Under the pieces are notes generated by a model. The model was not told the origin of the DNA. It made no database searches and saw nothing but the letters and a program-made list of their open reading frames with translations. From Methanobacteriota archaeon (lineage in GTDB: Archaea > Thermoplasmatota > Poseidoniia > Poseidoniales > Poseidoniaceae), in NCBI GenBank assembly GCA_018650165.1, contig JABIGM010000027.1, forward strand, positions 1-61,742: a DNA stretch of 61,742 nucleotides, in the 5' to 3' direction. Position numbers and translations under genes: made by a program. Below, piece by piece: positions 4,537 through 49,521 of the stretch (within the stretch, counting starts at the first letter, position 1; each line of letters opens with the position of its first letter).

Positions 4537-5196
4537 TTATTGGTTTGATTTTTGACGGCGAGTCATTTCCGAAGTACCTGTCTCACGCTTACCCTTTGGA
4601 ATCCACAGGGTTTCGTCTTCCCCTAATCTCAGGGTTATCCAGCGTGTTAGAATGAACAGCCAATCCGATAACCGATTTACATATTGCAAAGTGACAGGAC
4701 GGATTTCATCAACAATTCCAACCATTGAACGCTCCAATCTACGAGTTACCGTGCGGGCGAGATGTAATGTTGCAACAGAACCAGACCCGGTTGGCATAAT
4801 AAAACTCTCAAGAGGAGGTAATTCTTCATTCCAAGTATCCATTTCTTCACATAAACGGTCAGAATCTTTCTGGTCAATTAATTCCATGAATTCGGGTAGC
4901 TTATCCGGCGAGCAGGCCAGTTCAGCTCCAAGGTCAAATAATTCACTTTGTAGGCGACCTATTGCAGAAGAACACACGTCCTTTACTCGGCGAACGGTGA
5001 TTCGCTGGCCCCCATCTGCATGGGTATCTGAAATACGGTTTGATTCCATCAATACAAGGCCGAGTAATGCATTGACTTCGTCACATGTGCCAACTATCTC
5101 TATTCGGGTATTGCTCTTTGCAACACGGCTGCCATCTACTAGAGAAGTTTCACCAGAATCGCCGCTCCCGGTATGCACCTTTGTGATTCGGACCAT
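4537..5196 (-). CDS. pduO: ATP:cob(I)alamin adenosyltransferase, PduO type
   Basis: Motifs KVHTGSGDSGETSL...RVAK, GTCDEVNA, LQSELFDLGAELA, LHLARTVTRRLER and YVNRLSDWLFILTR. Confidence 0.92.
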   Translation of the reverse strand: MVRITKVHTGSGDSGETSLVDGSRVAKSNTRIEIVGTCDEVNALLGLVLMESNRISDTHADGGQRITVRRVKDVCSSAIGRLQSELFDLGAELACSPDKLPEFMELIDQKDSDRLCEEMDTWNEELPPLESFIMPTGSGSVATLHLARTVTRRLERSMVGIVDEIRPVTLQYVNRLSDWLFILTRWITLRLGEDETLWIPKGKRETGTSEMTRRQKSNQ

Positions 5197-42816: not shown

Positions 42817-42921
42817 CGGCAAACCTCCTCAGTCATCTATCCTCGGCGGCGGTAGTTCTTGAACCCACGCCTTACACTATTATCGGAACTATTGAAAACA
42901 AGAGTAAATTTACCATTAGTC

Positions 42922-43827
42922 ATGCGAAGCCGAGTTATACTGATTGCATTAGTCCTTGGACTCGCATCAATTCCATCGGCGCAGGGCGGTACTGCGGAAA
43001 AGCTGGAAGATGTGGGTTTTACATTTGGCGGCCTAACTCTAGATGCAAATACAACTGGTAACGCGACTTCTAGTCTCGCAGATTTACCTGCCGTTGTAGA
43101 GTACTATACTGCCACTTGGTGTGCTAATTGCGTCTATGTTGAACATGCTTTAGACGATGTGGAAAATAATAGTGTAAATATCCAACAGTTCCATTTTCAC
43201 CGTGACCAAGATAGTGAAGACCCGTGGGGAACAGCTGAAGGAGAGGCTCGCTGGGACGATAGATACGATGGAGGAGTTGCCCCAACTGTGGTATTCAATG
43301 GTAGCATGAAGCAAATTGGAAGCGTCGCTGAAGGCGATTCACTTGAAGAGGATTACACTGCTTTAGCCGCTATGGATTTAGAACTAGGTGCCGGTGTTTC
43401 TTCCATGGGTTGGAATAATGATTCAGGAGTATTTACCTGGAATCTGCAATTTGATGAAAGCATCATTCCCGAAGATGGTGAATTGGTACACATGCTTTGG
43501 ATTACTGAGAGGTTCGCAAACTTCCCCGATGGTAGTAACGGAGTAGAGAATTATCCTCATGTCGTTAAAGCACTATTTTCACTTGGAAATAATTCTTCTG
43601 GGGCAATGGTAATCGATTTACCTGCAGCACATGATGGCGATGATTTACAGTTGCATCTTATTCATCAAATCGTACTACCTGATTCGGTTGAAGAAAACAA
43701 TAGCCAGCCACCAATTCCAGTTAAATCCGATAACCAAAATGATGGCGGCCTTCCTAGTCTCAGTTTGATTGCAGTACTATCTGTGGTGATGGTTGCAGCA
43801 TTCACTGTGCAGCGAAAGCAGCAATGA
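42922..43827 (+). CDS. Exported thioredoxin-fold (CxxC) protein with a C-terminal sorting-signal-like anchor
   Basis: Signal peptide (VILIALVLGLASIPSAQG), EYYTATWCANC, PTVVFNG, and C-terminal GGLPSLSLIAVLSVVMVAAFTVQRKQQ. ATG 42922 preferred. Confidence 0.68.
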   Translation: MRSRVILIALVLGLASIPSAQGGTAEKLEDVGFTFGGLTLDANTTGNATSSLADLPAVVEYYTATWCANCVYVEHALDDVENNSVNIQQFHFHRDQDSEDPWGTAEGEARWDDRYDGGVAPTVVFNGSMKQIGSVAEGDSLEEDYTALAAMDLELGAGVSSMGWNNDSGVFTWNLQFDESIIPEDGELVHMLWITERFANFPDGSNGVENYPHVVKALFSLGNNSSGAMVIDLPAAHDGDDLQLHLIHQIVLPDSVEENNSQPPIPVKSDNQNDGGLPSLSLIAVLSVVMVAAFTVQRKQQ

Positions 43828-44864: not shown

Positions 44865-45233
44865 TCAAAGCAGTTTCAGGTCGCCAGTGATTGCATCAAC
44901 TGCTAAACGCGGAGAAGGGCCAATTCCTAGAACGGTCACTGTCCCCGGGGGGATTTCAGTATGCCCTGCGTCCTTGATTAGTGAGCAGATTAAACTCCCT
45001 TCGAGAGCCTTGGCATACAATTGGCGTAGATGTGATTCATCATCAGCCCGTAGAACAATCTTACGTGCTCCGACCAAGTTCCAGCGTTCATACAAACGCG
45101 CTGCTTTCTTCTTAGCCTTCATAGCACAATCAACCGCTGCATGTGCACACTGTGCGGCTAACTTACCTTTGGATAGTTTGAGATCGTCCCGGGTCACTAG
45201 GACCATTGTGACCTCATCAAGCGGAGATGACAT
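44865..45233 (-). CDS. pth2: Peptidyl-tRNA hydrolase, archaeal/eukaryotic Pth2
   Basis: KMVLV-type start, LSKGKLAAQCAHAA, DAGHTEIPPGTVTVLGIGP and DAITGDLKLL. Confidence 0.95.
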   Translation of the reverse strand: MSSPLDEVTMVLVTRDDLKLSKGKLAAQCAHAAVDCAMKAKKKAARLYERWNLVGARKIVLRADDESHLRQLYAKALEGSLICSLIKDAGHTEIPPGTVTVLGIGPSPRLAVDAITGDLKLL

Positions 45234-45876
45234 CAGTCTCACCAAGTGGTTGTATCTCGTCGATATGAGAAGTCTCTTCGAAGACTAAGTTCGCAAGCCA
45301 AGGAGCTATCCAAACTGCACTAACCACGCTAGCAATAACGTGCATTGCATCAAATGGTAATCCGTTCAGAAGATATATGCCGAATTCAGAAATGGTCATC
45401 CCACTTGTAAAGATAGATAGTGAGACCCACCAGTCAAACATTACAGAAGCGAATATTGCTGAGATTACAAGGCGCTTCATCACGATTTCATTCTGGAATG
45501 CCAAACCAAGACGCGACCCTGCAAATGCGATTGCTGCCCATCCGCTAGCCTGGAATAATGTCCACCAGCCATGAGATAATACTAGATTTGAAATCATAGT
45601 TGCCATCACTGCAAATGCCATTCCACGACGGGCGCCAAGGGTCGCTCCCATTACCAAACACATCACGGTTAGTGGTTGAACATTTGGAAATGGTTCTAGT
45701 AGAATTCGACTTGCTGCTGCTGCTGTCGTGATGCTCGTTAGAACTAAGATTTCTCTCTTTGCAGAGTGTGCTGGTCTACACAAAAGGAAGAATGAAATGG
45801 TTATCAAAACCATGTTGACTACAAGGGATTCGACAGGAGAGAGGGTTGGACCGTGGACTCCGTCTGTTAGTGCCAT
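45217..45876 (-). CDS. ECF transporter S-component, CbrT-like (probable cobalamin substrate)
   Basis: Six to seven TM helices, AASRILLEPFPNVQPLT, SNLVLSHGWWTLFQ and GLPFDAMHVIA. Confidence 0.78.
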   Translation of the reverse strand: MALTDGVHGPTLSPVESLVVNMVLITISFFLLCRPAHSAKREILVLTSITTAAAASRILLEPFPNVQPLTVMCLVMGATLGARRGMAFAVMATMISNLVLSHGWWTLFQASGWAAIAFAGSRLGLAFQNEIVMKRLVISAIFASVMFDWWVSLSIFTSGMTISEFGIYLLNGLPFDAMHVIASVVSAVWIAPWLANLVFEETSHIDEIQPLGETDVISA

Positions 45877-45907
45877 GAACAGCGGTAGAGGACTCGAGAC
45901 TTGAACT

Positions 45908-47530
45908 TCACGCTAATGACCAACGTACAACGCTGTCTTCTCCTAGTTCTGCTTGAGAAATTCCTACCGAGGATCTTTTACCATCAATTGTAAACTCCCA
46001 ACCCTCTTCATCATGACCATCAAAAGCAGTCACCCATGTGCCAAAATCATATGACTCCTTAGATATCGAAATGTCCAATTCAGCTGCGGCTATATCGGTG
46101 AATTCCTCGACATTTTCATAGCCACTAAATCCACCAAGGGCTAATTCGCCATCTGGTAATTCGAATACAATAACCTGTGTACCCTGCCATTCATCTGGCC
46201 AAGAAGCATCCCAGTCCTCTTTTGAGTCATTTAGTGTATCAACTTCTTTTGACCATGTGTTGGATACATCTGGCAATATAAAAATCATAATTGCAAGGAG
46301 AAGTAGTAAGCCGACCTTAGTTGCCATTTTGTTATTCTTCTTTATTTGAAAGAAGAACATGGTTAAACATAGAAATATAATCAAGGATTCTTGAAAATAC
46401 GATTTTGATTTTTCAGAATCCGAGTCCTTTGTGATGAGGTCGGGCAAAAATACCATCAGCACTCCATTGTCGTTTCCAAGTGCTAATTCACCACTAGTTC
46501 CAAAGCCTGGGCCTGCCGTTGTATATGTGTCATGAAGGGTATGGAATGTAGTAACTTCAGAACCGGGATAGCCTATTCCCCAGCCGCCGCTAGGAGTGTT
46601 ATTTGGAAACCATATTTGTCCATCTAACTGCATTGTTATCTCGCCGTTAGTATGATAATTAGTTCGCCCCTCTATCGAACAATTTGTTTCACAATTTATA
46701 GAAATGAGATGAGAACTAGTTGCAAAAAATACCTTCTGTCCAACTTTCAACGGGATTGCTGAGGAATATCCTTCTCCAGATAATAATGTATTACCTACAT
46801 AGATTTCTGAGCCATTTGGTGTTTGAAGGTGGGTTATTACTCCGTGATTAGTTTCAATTGGGGCGTGTCTGATTTTTCCTTCCCCAATAGTAATATTGCT
46901 TACCGTGCCTTGTTTGGAAATTATATTGAGAATGCCTTCTTCATTCCCAAGAAGATAGTGTTCTTCGCTGACAGAAACTCCATTCCTCCAACCTAGTTGA
47001 GGTAGGTCTACTCTCAATTCAAGTTCGCCATCATCAAGACAGAAGGTGGACAGCCCTTTGCGAGTAGGAACTACAACTAAATCAGAATCCAATGACATAG
47101 CACCAGTAATACCCCAGGTAATTACTTCTGTTTGTGCAATCCAAATCAACGAACCATCTGTAATGTCCAAAGCTGTGACTCTACCATCGGTCCATCCAAC
47201 TAAAATCATTTCACTCCAATTCCCACAATCCCCTGCGCCTGCTTTGACATGAAGTAGTGGGCTCAAGTCGTGTTGAGTAGAAGTATTGCTGCGATACTTC
47301 CAATTCAACGTTCCTTCGTGTAAATTGTATGAATAAACATGCGGCCTATCTTCCTCTGTCCAAAATCCGGATGTTCTAACAATTACTTGATCTTCAACAA
47401 TAATCGGCTTAGTAGAGATGAAGCCGTTTTCTAAATCTACTTCCCAAGAAGAATCATTTTCTACAGAACCTGAAGAAGGTGGGATGAGCAGACAGAATAG
47501 TAGTCCGACCAAAACGATACAACGTTTCAT
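45908..47530 (-). CDS. PQQ-like beta-propeller + TM hairpin + DUF4430 (transcobalamin C-terminal-like) fusion
   Basis: Signal peptide and PQQ-type blades (YSYNLHEGTLNWKY; TALDITDGSLIWIA). Two TM helices separated by KKNNK, then C-terminal FGTWVTAFDG....GWEFTIDGKRSSVGISQAELGEDSVVRW. Confidence 0.72.
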   Translation of the reverse strand: MKRCIVLVGLLFCLLIPPSSGSVENDSSWEVDLENGFISTKPIIVEDQVIVRTSGFWTEEDRPHVYSYNLHEGTLNWKYRSNTSTQHDLSPLLHVKAGAGDCGNWSEMILVGWTDGRVTALDITDGSLIWIAQTEVITWGITGAMSLDSDLVVVPTRKGLSTFCLDDGELELRVDLPQLGWRNGVSVSEEHYLLGNEEGILNIISKQGTVSNITIGEGKIRHAPIETNHGVITHLQTPNGSEIYVGNTLLSGEGYSSAIPLKVGQKVFFATSSHLISINCETNCSIEGRTNYHTNGEITMQLDGQIWFPNNTPSGGWGIGYPGSEVTTFHTLHDTYTTAGPGFGTSGELALGNDNGVLMVFLPDLITKDSDSEKSKSYFQESLIIFLCLTMFFFQIKKNNKMATKVGLLLLLAIMIFILPDVSNTWSKEVDTLNDSKEDWDASWPDEWQGTQVIVFELPDGELALGGFSGYENVEEFTDIAAAELDISISKESYDFGTWVTAFDGHDEEGWEFTIDGKRSSVGISQAELGEDSVVRWSLA

Positions 47531-49521
47531 CAGGAATGCCTCTGAATAACTTCGCGTAATAGTGCACTTACCTGTTTACCATCAGCGACACCGCCGCATT
47601 CTTTCATTACCAAACCCATCAATGGTCCCAAAGCACCCATGCCTCGCTCCTTTACAAAATCAATTCTGCTTTCTACAACCTTCTCAACAATAGCGAGTAG
47701 GTCTCCTGAATCAGCAGGCTTTATTCCCAGTTCTTCTGCTTTGTTAGCGAGTTGGTCCATGCTTGGATTTTCGCCTGCAAATTCTTCCATCAGAGTAGAC
47801 ATTCCTTCTCTTGTAACGTGTCCTGCTTCTTTTGCAGCGAGTACTAAGGCCATCAGTCCGATTTCTCCGTTGTTCTCCAAAAGCATGGTAGCCCAAGCTT
47901 TTGCCGGAAGGCCGCTATTATGGGCGACGAAATAATCGTCCAATTCTCTGGATAGAAGCTGTTTCATTTGGTCTTCACTAATTGAAAAGGTTCCAAGTCT
48001 TTCCAATCTTTCAGATTGTGTCATCGGAAGGTTGTTGATGACTTTCTCCCAATGCTGAGAAGTAATTGAGTAGGGAGGGATATCCGTTTCAGGGTACATC
48101 CTAGCACCGCCCGGTAGTGGGCGCATTGGAGTTGTAGTCCCGTCCTCTGGAGATCCTTTTTTGATTACTACATTTCGAACTTCTTGTGAGATTCTCTCAA
48201 ACGCCATTCTTGCCCTATTGAGGACGCTTTCTAGAGCGAGTTCGGCTTGCCACCTAGGCGCTAGGCACAGTACAAAGGCATCTACCCCATTGAGGCACTC
48301 TCTTGCAGCATCGACAAATTCTTGCTCGATTCCATATGCCGGGAGTTCATCAGAATGGAATACTCCTGCAACACCTGCAAGTTTTGCTGCACCTGCAAGT
48401 TCTCTTCCTAAACGAGGCAACTGGGCTCCGTCTTCATCAAATTCTTTGACTCCTATCAAACCATTAAACCCTGGTAAAGGTAAAGCCAGCATTATTGATT
48501 TGGATTCTAAACCTGATTTTACCATTTTTGAATCACAACTTGTGAAAGCATCACTAACATCGATTAACTCTAACCCTAGTATCTGTGAAACTTCATCTGT
48601 AACATTTGGAGATTCTACTCGCCTATCTGGCGATAAAACGGGAAGTCCGTGTGCTGCTCTCAATTGATTAGCAAGACGGTAAAAATGAAGTTGCCTAGCC
48701 ATTTCACAACGGATGATTTTGGGAATCCAATCTAGATCTTGGCACCCTTTGATTTCAACTCTATCGCCACACATTATTGAGACGTTGAGGTCCTGTCGAA
48801 TACTTCCCAGTCCCCTTCTTACTCGGCGTGTGTCTCGAAGTGTTCTACCCAATGCAATCGAAGTTTGTTTTGCGTGGTCTGGAGTTTTTACATCTGGCGC
48901 AGTTGCGATTTCAATTAATGGAATGCCGAGCCTATCCAAATTCCAAGTTACTATTTCACCATCCGGAGTTAGTTCGTTATCCAACTTGCGAGCACTGTCT
49001 TCTTCTAAACAAAGTACATCGATTCCAACAGGGCCTCCCTCCGTCTCCAATACCCCATCTGTGGCTACTAGTGTAGTGCGCTGAAAACCACTTGTATTTG
49101 AGCCGTCTACTACGGTCTTACGCATGGTTTGTAGAAGTGGTACAGGATGCGCCCCAATCATTCCAGAAACCGTTAGCGAGATATCTAATGCATCCTTATC
49201 ATGGATTAATGGTGGTTGTTCATCAAGTTCAATTAAACCAGCATTAGGTGATTGACAATATACGAATGAGCGATTTCGACGCGCTTCAAATCTAGCTGCA
49301 ACATCTATTGCTCCGCCTTCGCCGCTAGCTGAGCGGAGGCGGCGGTTGTATTTGGGCCAGTTTTTTGGAAGGGTGTCTATTGTTACATCATGAAGTTCGC
49401 CTGGTTGGCGCGAGTGTAGTTTGCCAGTCGCCAATTGCTGATGAACCTCGATTCCGCACATGAAACCAAGATTTTCAGGATCCAGTGATGCAGGGGTTGC
49501 CACATTACCTTCCGGTTCCAT
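47530..49521 (-). CDS. gatE: Glu-tRNA(Gln) amidotransferase subunit E
   Basis: GIEVHQQL, MRKTVVDGSNTSGFQRT, CLEED, LDRLGIPLIEIAT, RGLGSIRQDLNVSI, RPLPGGARMYPETDIP and a Yqey-like tail. Confidence 0.96.
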   Translation of the reverse strand: MEPEGNVATPASLDPENLGFMCGIEVHQQLATGKLHSRQPGELHDVTIDTLPKNWPKYNRRLRSASGEGGAIDVAARFEARRNRSFVYCQSPNAGLIELDEQPPLIHDKDALDISLTVSGMIGAHPVPLLQTMRKTVVDGSNTSGFQRTTLVATDGVLETEGGPVGIDVLCLEEDSARKLDNELTPDGEIVTWNLDRLGIPLIEIATAPDVKTPDHAKQTSIALGRTLRDTRRVRRGLGSIRQDLNVSIMCGDRVEIKGCQDLDWIPKIIRCEMARQLHFYRLANQLRAAHGLPVLSPDRRVESPNVTDEVSQILGLELIDVSDAFTSCDSKMVKSGLESKSIMLALPLPGFNGLIGVKEFDEDGAQLPRLGRELAGAAKLAGVAGVFHSDELPAYGIEQEFVDAARECLNGVDAFVLCLAPRWQAELALESVLNRARMAFERISQEVRNVVIKKGSPEDGTTTPMRPLPGGARMYPETDIPPYSITSQHWEKVINNLPMTQSERLERLGTFSISEDQMKQLLSRELDDYFVAHNSGLPAKAWATMLLENNGEIGLMALVLAAKEAGHVTREGMSTLMEEFAGENPSMDQLANKAEELGIKPADSGDLLAIVEKVVESRIDFVKERGMGALGPLMGLVMKECGGVADGKQVSALLREVIQRHS

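What the first reader, a model, noticed from the sequence alone, without database searches (positions are those of the whole stretch)
45217..47530. Candidate archaeal vitamin B12 capture system: propeller-DUF4430 fusion plus CbrT-like S-component
Seen: gene 45908-47530 encodes a signal peptide, PQQ-type propeller, TM hairpin with a basic KKNNK inner loop, and a C-terminal G.WV..FDG...GW.F.IDG...VG....L.....V.W domain. This topology would put both domains outside the cell. The next gene is an ECF S-component with PNVQP. No ECF T or A genes are adjacent and there is no room for a riboswitch, because the gatE stop overlaps the start. Established: the PNVQP-type motif marks CbrT, the cobalamin S-component; DUF4430 resembles the transcobalamin C-terminal domain and is linked to B12 uptake. 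A PduO adenosyltransferase is at 4537-5196. Inference: a membrane-tethered two-domain B12 scavenger feeding a solitary or shared-module ECF transporter. I do not recognise the propeller fusion from any described system.
Basis: partly seen in the sequence, partly recalled or inferred. Interest (0 to 1): 0.72.

Follow-up and report, generated by a model that had tools for sequence, protein, structure and literature searches.

The report
Archaeal B12-type capture and uptake gene pair
This abundant marine archaeon (Marine Group II) carries a surface protein with a domain folded like the vitamin-B12-binding half of human transcobalamin. Beside it lies a membrane protein related to a known B12 importer subunit, with no sign of the ATP motor that subunit normally needs, so this is the best candidate for how these uncultured B12-dependent archaea get the vitamin.

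Summary
Gene 45908-47530 (-) encodes a signal peptide, an 8-bladed BamB/PQQ-like propeller, a two-helix membrane hairpin with a KKNNK loop, and a C-terminal DUF4430 domain. Modelled alone, that domain matches only DUF4430 and the beta domains of transcobalamin, haptocorrin and intrinsic factor. Gene 45217-45876 (-) is a DUF6580 protein whose only significant solved relative is CbrT, the cobalamin S-component (6FNP).

The organism belongs to the Poseidoniaceae (Marine Group II). No EcfT was found in 121 genomes of the order. AdoCbl-dependent methylmalonyl-CoA mutase is nearly universal there, BtuC-type permeases are rare, and CobS was not found where searched.

The DUF4430/CbrT-like pair recurs across Thermoplasmatota outside this synteny: as neighbours, as single-ORF fusions, and inside full ECF operons, one with a separate propeller gene. 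A protein found with the family's domain profile sits behind a cobalamin riboswitch.

Best reading: a surface capture protein feeding a solitary CbrT-like transporter for cobamides. Binding, substrate (heme is a live rival) and the propeller's role are untested. This is a new variant of a system predicted in 2007-2009. The scan has noted related operons in other genomes.

The parts
45908..47530 (-). Gene for the 540-aa exported propeller / membrane hairpin / DUF4430 protein
   Evidence: ORF. Hundreds of orthologues of 540-580 aa. AF2 model with mean pLDDT 85.
47465..47530 (-). Signal peptide (residues 1 to about 22)
   Evidence: Sequence: MKR followed by a hydrophobic core and SSGS. N-terminal helix 2-14 in the model.
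46448..47449 (-). 8-bladed BamB/PQQ_2-like beta-propeller (residues 28-361)
   Evidence: Pfam PQQ_2 at E 9e-15. pLDDT above 90. Best Foldseek matches are designed 8-blade propellers and BamB, at E 1e-15 to 1e-11. About 65% identity within the close Marine Group IIa set.
46232..46420 (-). Membrane hairpin: helices 371-396 and 400-433 in the model, hydrophobic cores 382-396 and 406-420, basic loop KKNNK 397-401
   Evidence: The basic loop fits a cytoplasmic position, which places both flanking domains outside the cell (inference from the positive-inside rule).
45911..46177 (-). DUF4430 / transcobalamin-beta-like (SLBB beta-grasp) domain (residues 452-540)
   Evidence: Pfam PF14478. Domain model pLDDT 94. 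The first 18 Foldseek PDB matches are 3u7z and transcobalamin, haptocorrin and intrinsic factor beta domains, TMq 0.58-0.68.
45217..45876 (-). CbrT-like S-component (DUF6580), 219 aa, with an extra N-terminal helix and PNVQP at residues 64-68
   Evidence: PF20221 at 38 bits. phmmer to 6fnp_A at E 8e-9. 78-84% identity among close orthologues. Hydropathy peaks.
4537..5196 (-). PduO-type cobalamin adenosyltransferase (41 kb away, same window): the cytoplasmic user of imported cobalamin
   Evidence: PF01923 at 161 bits.

Best explanation
The two genes encode a cell-surface capture and uptake system for cobamides (vitamin B12 and relatives) in a B12-auxotrophic Marine Group IIa archaeon.

The 540-aa protein is exported by its signal peptide and held in the membrane by a two-helix hairpin. 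This places both the propeller and the transcobalamin-beta-like DUF4430 domain outside the cell (topology inferred from sequence). The DUF4430 domain binds the corrinoid and passes it to the adjacent CbrT-like S-component (inferred).

The genome and the whole sampled order show no EcfT, so the S-component most likely works alone. It would topple or facilitate diffusion as proposed for BtuM, with cytoplasmic trapping by PduO adenosylation and B12 enzymes (inferred).

The propeller is an accessory. It is absent from the short forms in Marine Group IIb and is a separate gene in another Thermoplasmatota lineage. It probably tethers or scaffolds the binder at the cell surface, or completes the binding site in place of the missing alpha/alpha toroid (speculative).

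The hairpin arose by fusing a propeller gene ending in a membrane anchor to a DUF4430 gene starting with a signal anchor.
For: Domain identities
- DUF4430.
- Fold: the 18 best PDB matches of the domain model are DUF4430 (3u7z) and transcobalamin, haptocorrin and intrinsic factor beta domains. These include 5np4, the isolated transcobalamin beta domain with cyanocobalamin. Ubiquitin-like folds follow about 20-fold worse in E-value.
- S-component: the only significant PDB relative is CbrT. PMC5997447 shows that CbrT binds and transports cobalamin.

Functional link between the two genes
- GatE-X-S-component-Pth2 order is kept across the order, and X always carries a DUF4430 domain.
- Outside the order, at least 28 of 38 Thermoplasmatota genomes with DUF6580 have a DUF4430 hit within about 1 kb. 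No GatE or Pth2 match turned up in the eight such loci fetched (L026-L033).
- Five genomes have both domains in one ORF (Pfam-confirmed for two).
- Full operons exist: DUF4430-EcfT-EcfAA'-S-component in L031, and propeller-DUF4430-EcfT-EcfAA'-S-component in L028.

Need for B12 and lack of alternatives
- Methylmalonyl-CoA mutase in 119 of 121 genomes, plus PduO in the window.
- No CobS and no FecCD/BtuC in the own genome.
- FecCD over cut-off in only 5 of 61 genomes.
- EcfT over cut-off in 0 of 121 genomes.
- Marine Group II is regarded as B12-auxotrophic (PMC9296465).
- Five ALAD-positive genomes still lack CobS and keep the pair.

Direct B12 link for the domain family
- A protein found with the Marine Group II domain profile (P0317, E 1e-16) lies directly behind a cobalamin riboswitch (RF00174, 78 bits).

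Precedent
- BtuM is a solitary S-component-like B12 transporter (PMC6072759).

Complex prediction (S-component with residues 365-540)
- Verdict: weak support, score 0.56, best of 3 controls 0.00.
- That mark was reached by 58 of 80 solved complexes and 2 of 110 mismatched pairs. At 0.60 or under it was reached by only 7 of the 80 solved complexes and by both mismatches that passed.
- The runs agree in at least 0% of their contacts, and partner pLDDT is at least 67.
Against: - No binding or transport data exist for any archaeal member.
- Solitary L. delbrueckii CbrT did not support B12-dependent growth of E. coli without its ECF module (PMC5997447), so an ECF-free mode is not a given for this family.
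- A homologous bacterial system (L. sakei Lsa1836-1840) was reported to take up heme (bioRxiv 10.1101/864751).
- Most Poseidoniales lack ALAD, yet the own genome has a heme-copper oxidase. They therefore also need a heme source.
- Sequence similarity of the domain to transcobalamin itself is marginal (E 0.06).
- The own genome is only 80% complete.
- The three complex runs disagree (0.67, 0.00, 0.56).
- The operon sits among housekeeping genes, and no B12-responsive element was found in it.
Confidence: 0.6

Rival explanations
1. Same architecture, different or broader cargo: the pair imports heme or another tetrapyrrole, instead of or in addition to cobamides.
For: - ALAD (porphobilinogen synthase) was found in only 11 of 61 genomes of the order and in 0 of 3 of the own genus.
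- The own genome encodes a bona fide heme-copper oxidase subunit I (478 bits), so heme must come from outside.
- The L. sakei ECF-like system with transcobalamin alpha/beta-like proteins was linked to heme uptake.
- Burroughs et al. suggested that archaeal members may scavenge a distinct metabolite.
Against: - The S-component's only solved relative is the cobalamin/cobinamide transporter subunit CbrT, with PNVQP conserved.
- The domain's structural matches are all B12 carriers or DUF4430.
- A family member sits behind a cobalamin riboswitch.
- ALAD-positive genomes, presumed able to make heme, lack CobS and retain the pair.
Confidence: 0.2
2. The S-component is not solitary. It is energised by an unrecognised partner: a divergent EcfT/ATPase encoded elsewhere, or the hairpin of the 540-aa protein serving as the docking platform for an ABC ATPase.
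For: - The Pfam CbiQ model missed a real EcfT-like domain in the Marine Group IIb triple fusion: E 3.6 by hmmscan, yet blastp E 1e-8 to a genuine CbiQ protein. Model-based absence is therefore fallible.
- L. delbrueckii CbrT needs its module.
- Two Marine Group IIb genera keep a T-A-A' gene inside this very cluster.
Against: - A search with that divergent T domain itself found it only in those two genera (8 of 121 genomes; 0 of 59 in the own family).
- The best own-genome matches to the T-A-A' protein are generic ABC ATPases at 38 bits or less.
- Several other Thermoplasmatota families also have DUF6580 with little or no EcfT.
Confidence: 0.15
3. The 540-aa protein is a generic surface or S-layer-associated propeller protein, and its adjacency to the S-component is just frozen synteny among housekeeping genes.
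For: - The whole MCM-GatE-X-S-component-Pth2 block is syntenic across the order.
- The propeller is a generic BamB-like fold.
Against: - The DUF4430/DUF6580 pairing persists outside the order in the fetched loci, where no GatE or Pth2 match was seen. It includes single-ORF fusions and ECF operons.
- X varies in size, but a DUF4430 domain is always kept.
Confidence: 0.05

Closest known systems
ECF-CbrT vitamin B12 transporter of Lactobacillus delbrueckii (PDB 6FNP; PMC5997447)
   Same: The S-component is homologous (E 8e-9, PNVQP aligned). In both cases the host is a B12 auxotroph without BtuCDF and carries a PduO adenosyltransferase.
   Different: No EcfT/EcfAA' was found in this genome or order. 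The S-component has an extra N-terminal helix. A dedicated extracytoplasmic DUF4430 protein is encoded next to it. L. delbrueckii CbrT alone did not work in E. coli.
Bacterial transcobalamin-like SLBB/DUF4430 surface proteins in CbiO/CbiQ operons (Burroughs et al. 2007, PMC1796856) and the L. sakei Lsa1836-1840 ECF-like system (bioRxiv 10.1101/864751)
   Same: A secreted or tethered transcobalamin-beta-like domain is encoded with ECF-type transporter genes in organisms lacking B12 synthesis. A beta-propeller fusion was already listed for a Clostridium protein.
   Different: Here no alpha/alpha toroid partner was found (PF01122 negative) and no T or A genes. The propeller and DUF4430 are joined through a membrane hairpin. 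The lineage is archaeal and marine. The L. sakei system was assigned to heme.
BtuM of Thiobacillus denitrificans (PMC6072759)
   Same: An S-component-type membrane protein presumed to import B12 in an organism without any ECF module.
   Different: No BtuM chain appeared among the PDB sequence matches of the S-component. BtuM has no accessory surface protein. Its Cys-ligation chemistry is not indicated here.
Mammalian transcobalamin, intrinsic factor and haptocorrin
   Same: The C-terminal domain has the fold of their beta domain (TMq 0.58-0.68). The isolated transcobalamin beta domain binds cyanocobalamin (5np4).
   Different: There is no alpha domain. Sequence similarity is only marginal. The domain is membrane-tethered and hands cargo to a transporter, not to an endocytic receptor.
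BtuG surface propeller of Bacteroides (PMC10404256)
   Same: A surface-exposed beta-propeller within a B12 uptake locus.
   Different: The propeller here is an 8-blade BamB/PQQ_2 type. No BtuG appears among its best 50 structural matches, and there is no evidence that it binds B12.

Membership tests
CbrT-type ECF S-component (Pfam DUF6580, PF20221) | Sequence homology to characterised CbrT and to the family model | tested here: met
   PF20221 at 38 bits against a cut-off of 27. phmmer to 6fnp_A at E 8e-9 over residues 45-184, with PNVQP aligned.
CbrT-type ECF S-component (Pfam DUF6580, PF20221) | Works with an ECF module (EcfT plus EcfA/A') | tested here: not met
   PF02361 is absent from the own genome (80% complete) and over cut-off in 0 of 121 genomes of the order. 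A divergent T-A-A' fusion occurs only in two Marine Group IIb genera. Relatives in other Thermoplasmatota do sit in full ECF operons.
CbrT-type ECF S-component (Pfam DUF6580, PF20221) | Binds and translocates cobalamin or cobinamide | not testable with these tools
   Needs ITC, spectroscopy or growth complementation.
DUF4430 / transcobalamin C-terminal (SLBB) domain, PF14478 | Match to the family model | tested here: met
   23.3 bits against a cut-off of 23.8 by hmmscan. 27 bits, over the cut-off, in the six-frame search. Orthologues reach 25.7-35.2 bits. The family's domain profile finds 3974 cluster representatives.
DUF4430 / transcobalamin C-terminal (SLBB) domain, PF14478 | Beta-grasp fold of the transcobalamin/intrinsic factor/haptocorrin beta domain | tested here: met
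   Model pLDDT 94. Foldseek ranks 1-18 are 3u7z and transcobalamin, haptocorrin and intrinsic factor, probability 1.00, TMq 0.58-0.68.
DUF4430 / transcobalamin C-terminal (SLBB) domain, PF14478 | Extracytoplasmic location | tested here: inconclusive
   A signal peptide plus a hairpin with a basic loop predict an outside location. No experimental topology exists.
BtuG-type B12-binding propeller | Structural likeness to BtuG | tested here: not met
   The best matches are designed 8-blade propellers and BamB. No BtuG appears in the top 50.
PQQ-dependent dehydrogenase | Full-length match to the quinoprotein dehydrogenase models | tested here: not met
   TIGR03075 scores 19.9 bits against a cut-off of 480. 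PF01011 scores 14.3 against 26.7.
BtuM | Sequence relationship to BtuM | tested here: not met
   The PDB-wide phmmer search of the S-component returned only CbrT and a chance CbiX hit.

The most novel reading that the evidence does not exclude
Marine Group II archaea import cobamides, and possibly heme too, through a motor-less two-protein system. A membrane-tethered transcobalamin-beta-like domain, helped by a fused propeller, loads a solitary CbrT-type S-component. This would be the first S-component shown to depend on a dedicated extracytoplasmic binding protein in place of an ECF ATPase module. The hairpin and a conserved extracellular His8 extension of the S-component would form the hand-over site.
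Probability: 0.35. Interest if true: 0.72.

Novelty: new variant of a known kind. Interest (0 to 1): 0.55.

Why it matters
Marine Group II archaea are among the most abundant uncultured microbes of the surface ocean and are counted as B12 consumers, but their uptake route has not been pinned down. This gene pair gives a concrete, nearly universal marker for it. In the sampled genomes it was the only candidate recognised: EcfT was not found, and BtuC-type permeases were rare.

Mechanistically it pairs an S-component with its own surface binding domain and apparently without an ATPase module. That runs against two textbook statements: that ECF transporters use no binding protein, and that CbrT needs its module. 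Both points can be tested with simple expression and binding experiments.

The near-absence of porphobilinogen synthase in the order also raises the question of how these aerobes obtain heme.

Tried and rejected
- Riboswitch control: no Rfam family matched in the window or in 11 archaeal loci. This is expected for archaea and is not informative.
- BtuH as a DUF4430 protein: the BtuH paper mentions neither DUF4430 nor transcobalamin, so this lead from memory was dropped.
- Literature on 'DUF4430': only incidental mentions.
- Reaching bacterial DUF6580 proteins by word-based search from a Thermoplasmatales query gave only archaeal relatives.
- Profile-versus-PDB sequence search of the domain: transcobalamin only at E 0.06, among chance hits. 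The claim of relationship therefore rests on Pfam and fold.
- Pfam CbiQ on the N-terminal domain of the Marine Group IIb T-A-A' protein: E 3.6. The relationship was shown by blastp to a genuine CbiQ protein instead.
- Alpha/alpha toroid partner (PF01122): not found in the own genome. The model is eukaryote-centred, so this is weak evidence.
- The propeller as a PQQ enzyme or a BtuG was rejected.
- Loci L036, L039 and L040 around other DUF4430 proteins had no riboswitch.
Full report
**What is there.** Four tightly packed genes lie on the minus strand.
- gatE is at 47530-49521.
- A 540-aa gene is at 45908-47530. Its ATG shares one base with the gatE stop.
- After a 31-nt gap comes a 219-aa gene at 45217-45876.
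- pth2 is at 44865-45245 and overlaps the end of the 219-aa gene.

No Rfam family matches anywhere in the window. Homologues carry names such as Candidatus Poseidoniaceae or Thermoplasmatota archaeon. The assembly has 1.75 Mb in 66 contigs and is 80% complete. The organism is therefore a Marine Group IIa archaeon.

**The 540-aa protein.**
- Pfam finds PQQ_2 (E 9e-15). DUF4430 scores 23.3 bits against a cut-off of 23.8. The same domain scores 27 bits in the six-frame genome search and 25.7-35.2 bits in several orthologues.
- An AlphaFold2 model built on 37 homologues has mean pLDDT 85. It shows a propeller at 28-361 (pLDDT above 90), two long helices at 371-396 and 400-433, and a compact C-terminal domain at 452-539.
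- The hydrophobic cores are 382-396 and 406-420, flanking KKNNK at 397-401. With the N-terminal signal peptide, this predicts that both the propeller and the C-terminal domain face outward. This is an inference from sequence.
- The propeller's best structural matches are designed 8-blade propellers and BamB. No BtuG appears in the top 50. Dehydrogenase models are far below threshold.
- Modelled alone, the C-terminal domain has pLDDT 94. Its first 18 PDB matches are the DUF4430 protein 3u7z and the beta domains of transcobalamin, haptocorrin and intrinsic factor, including the isolated transcobalamin beta domain with cyanocobalamin (5np4). Ubiquitin-like folds follow at about 20-fold worse E-values.
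- Sequence-only similarity to transcobalamin is marginal (E 0.06).
- The propeller and the DUF4430 domain are equally conserved in the close set (65% and 66% identity). The linker between the propeller and the hairpin is not conserved.

**The 219-aa protein.**
- It matches PF20221 (DUF6580) at 38 bits. Among all PDB sequences it significantly matches only chain A of 6FNP, the cobalamin S-component CbrT (E 8e-9), with PNVQP aligned identically.
- It has about 30 extra N-terminal residues, including one more hydrophobic helix.
- It is more conserved than its neighbour: 78-84% identity among the listed orthologues.

**Is the pairing meaningful?** Within the family the whole MCM-GatE-X-S-component-Pth2 block is syntenic, so adjacency alone proves little there. 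Across 121 genomes of the order the block persists while X changes:
- a propeller-hairpin-DUF4430 protein of 540-650 aa in 58 of 59 genomes of the own family;
- a short 206-210 aa membrane-anchored DUF4430 protein in some Marine Group IIb genera;
- in two Marine Group IIb genera, the long fusion followed by a 653-670 aa protein with a membrane domain and two ABC ATPase domains.

That membrane domain is missed by the Pfam CbiQ model (E 3.6). It matches a genuine CbiQ protein by blastp at E 1e-8, so it is an EcfT-EcfA-EcfA' triple fusion. It occurs only in those two genera (8 of 121 genomes).

Outside the order, 38 sampled Thermoplasmatota genomes have DUF6580.
- In at least 28 of them a DUF4430 hit lies within about 1 kb. 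No GatE or Pth2 match turned up in the eight such loci I fetched (L026-L033).
- In five genomes both domains are in one open reading frame, and Pfam confirms this for two.
- Many DUF4430 genes also abut CbiQ genes.
- Two loci show full operons. L031 has DUF4430-EcfT-EcfAA'-S-component.
- L028 has a separate PQQ-propeller protein (N-terminal signal, C-terminal anchor), then a DUF4430 protein with an N-terminal anchor, then EcfT, EcfAA' and the S-component.

L028 looks like the unfused ancestor of the Marine Group II protein and explains the hairpin as anchor plus signal anchor.

A complex prediction for the S-component with residues 365-540 gave weak support.
- Score 0.56, best of 3 controls 0.00.
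- That mark was reached by 58 of 80 solved complexes and 2 of 110 mismatched pairs. At 0.60 or under it was reached by only 7 of the 80 solved complexes and by both mismatches that passed.
- The runs scored 0.67, 0.00 and 0.56 and agree in at least 0% of their contacts. Partner pLDDT is at least 67.

**Is it about B12?**
- EcfT was over cut-off in 0 of 121 genomes of the order, while the controls ring.
- Methylmalonyl-CoA mutase is present in 119 of 121 genomes. The own genome has two copies plus B12-binding domains.
- A PduO adenosyltransferase lies in the window.
- The own genome shows no CobS and no FecCD/BtuC. FecCD passes its cut-off in only 5 of 61 genomes.
- Marine Group II is treated as B12-auxotrophic in the literature (PMC9296465).
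- The profile of the Marine Group II C-terminal domain finds 3974 cluster representatives with many architectures. One of them, P0317 (three DUF4430 repeats, E 1e-16), lies directly downstream of a cobalamin riboswitch (RF00174, 78 bits).
- CbrT itself is an experimentally proven cobalamin/cobinamide S-component (PMC5997447).

**The main doubt.**
- Porphobilinogen synthase was found in only 11 of 61 genomes of the order and in none of three of the own genus.
- The own genome nevertheless has a genuine heme-copper oxidase.
- These cells therefore seem to need external heme as well.
- A homologous bacterial system has been linked to heme uptake (bioRxiv 10.1101/864751).
- Against a heme-only role, five ALAD-positive genomes lack CobS and keep the pair, and every structural and sequence neighbour points to corrinoids.

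A second doubt concerns the motor-less mode. L. delbrueckii CbrT alone did not rescue E. coli. BtuM is a precedent for a solitary S-component-like B12 transporter (PMC6072759).

**Comparison and novelty.** Transcobalamin-like SLBB domains in CbiO/CbiQ operons of B12 non-producers, including a beta-propeller fusion, were described in 2007 (PMC1796856). CbrT was predicted in 2009 and proven in 2018. Earlier notes of this scan list many related operons, bacterial ones behind B12 riboswitches and one archaeal. I used them as leads to the papers and checked those papers myself.

What is particular here:
- the order-wide lack of an ECF module with retention of the S-component/DUF4430 pair;
- the hairpin-linked propeller fusion and its visible unfused precursor;
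- the ecological weight of the host.

I rate it a new variant of a known kind, with interest 0.55.

Noticed in passing
L014:4175-6136 (+) and L013:5575-7587 (+): Two Marine Group IIb genera carry a single 653-670 aa protein that fuses a short EcfT-like membrane domain to two ABC ATPase domains. It lies between the propeller-DUF4430 gene and the S-component. Pfam CbiQ misses the T domain (E 3.6), but blastp to a real CbiQ protein gives E 1e-8.
   Followed up: partly
Order-wide; own genome C36:26407-27753: Porphobilinogen synthase (ALAD) was found in only 11 of 61 Poseidoniales genomes and in none of the own genus. The own genome nevertheless has a genuine heme-copper oxidase subunit I. This suggests widespread heme auxotrophy in aerobic Marine Group II.
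   Followed up: partly
window 45847-45861 (-), residues 6-10 of the S-component: His8, in an N-terminal extension ahead of an extra helix, is at least 97% conserved in 129 Poseidoniales S-components. It is replaced only in the two lineages that keep an ECF T-A-A' gene in the cluster. It may be an extracellular ligand or hand-over residue.
   Followed up: partly
L026:2882-3916 (+), L027:3175-4203 (-): Single proteins of 342-344 aa in other Thermoplasmatota carry DUF6580 at the N-terminus, one more hydrophobic helix, and DUF4430 at the C-terminus. This is a natural fusion of the two partners.
   Followed up: yes
L038:1-191 (+): A cobalamin riboswitch (RF00174, 78 bits) lies directly upstream of a 347-aa protein made of three DUF4430 repeats, on a short metagenomic contig.
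   Followed up: yes
L036:1-6023: A large PQQ-propeller protein is encoded divergently from a 496-aa unknown, a prenyltransferase-like alpha/alpha toroid protein and a triple-DUF4430 protein. Propeller proteins therefore recur next to this domain outside Marine Group II.
   Followed up: no
L013:1408-3456 (+): In one Marine Group IIb genus, a 682-aa protein with two cupredoxin/plastocyanin domains and a PGF-CTERM-like tail is inserted between gatE and the propeller-DUF4430 gene.
   Followed up: no
window 42859-43827 (+): A 322-aa protein has a signal-like N-terminus, a WCANC thioredoxin-like motif and a C-terminal membrane anchor. It has no Pfam match and is conserved nearby in a relative (L018:743-1723).
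   Followed up: no
L015:5718-6602 (+), L018:2785-4099: Some Marine Group IIa genera have two Pth2 (peptidyl-tRNA hydrolase) matches downstream of the S-component: a same-strand tandem pair in L015, and two matches on opposite strands in L018.
   Followed up: no
G000:C34:5739-8960 (-): A 1157-aa open frame combines a methylmalonyl-CoA mutase domain and a B12-binding domain (IcmF-like fusion), in addition to the split mutase. It is present in many genomes of the order.
   Followed up: no
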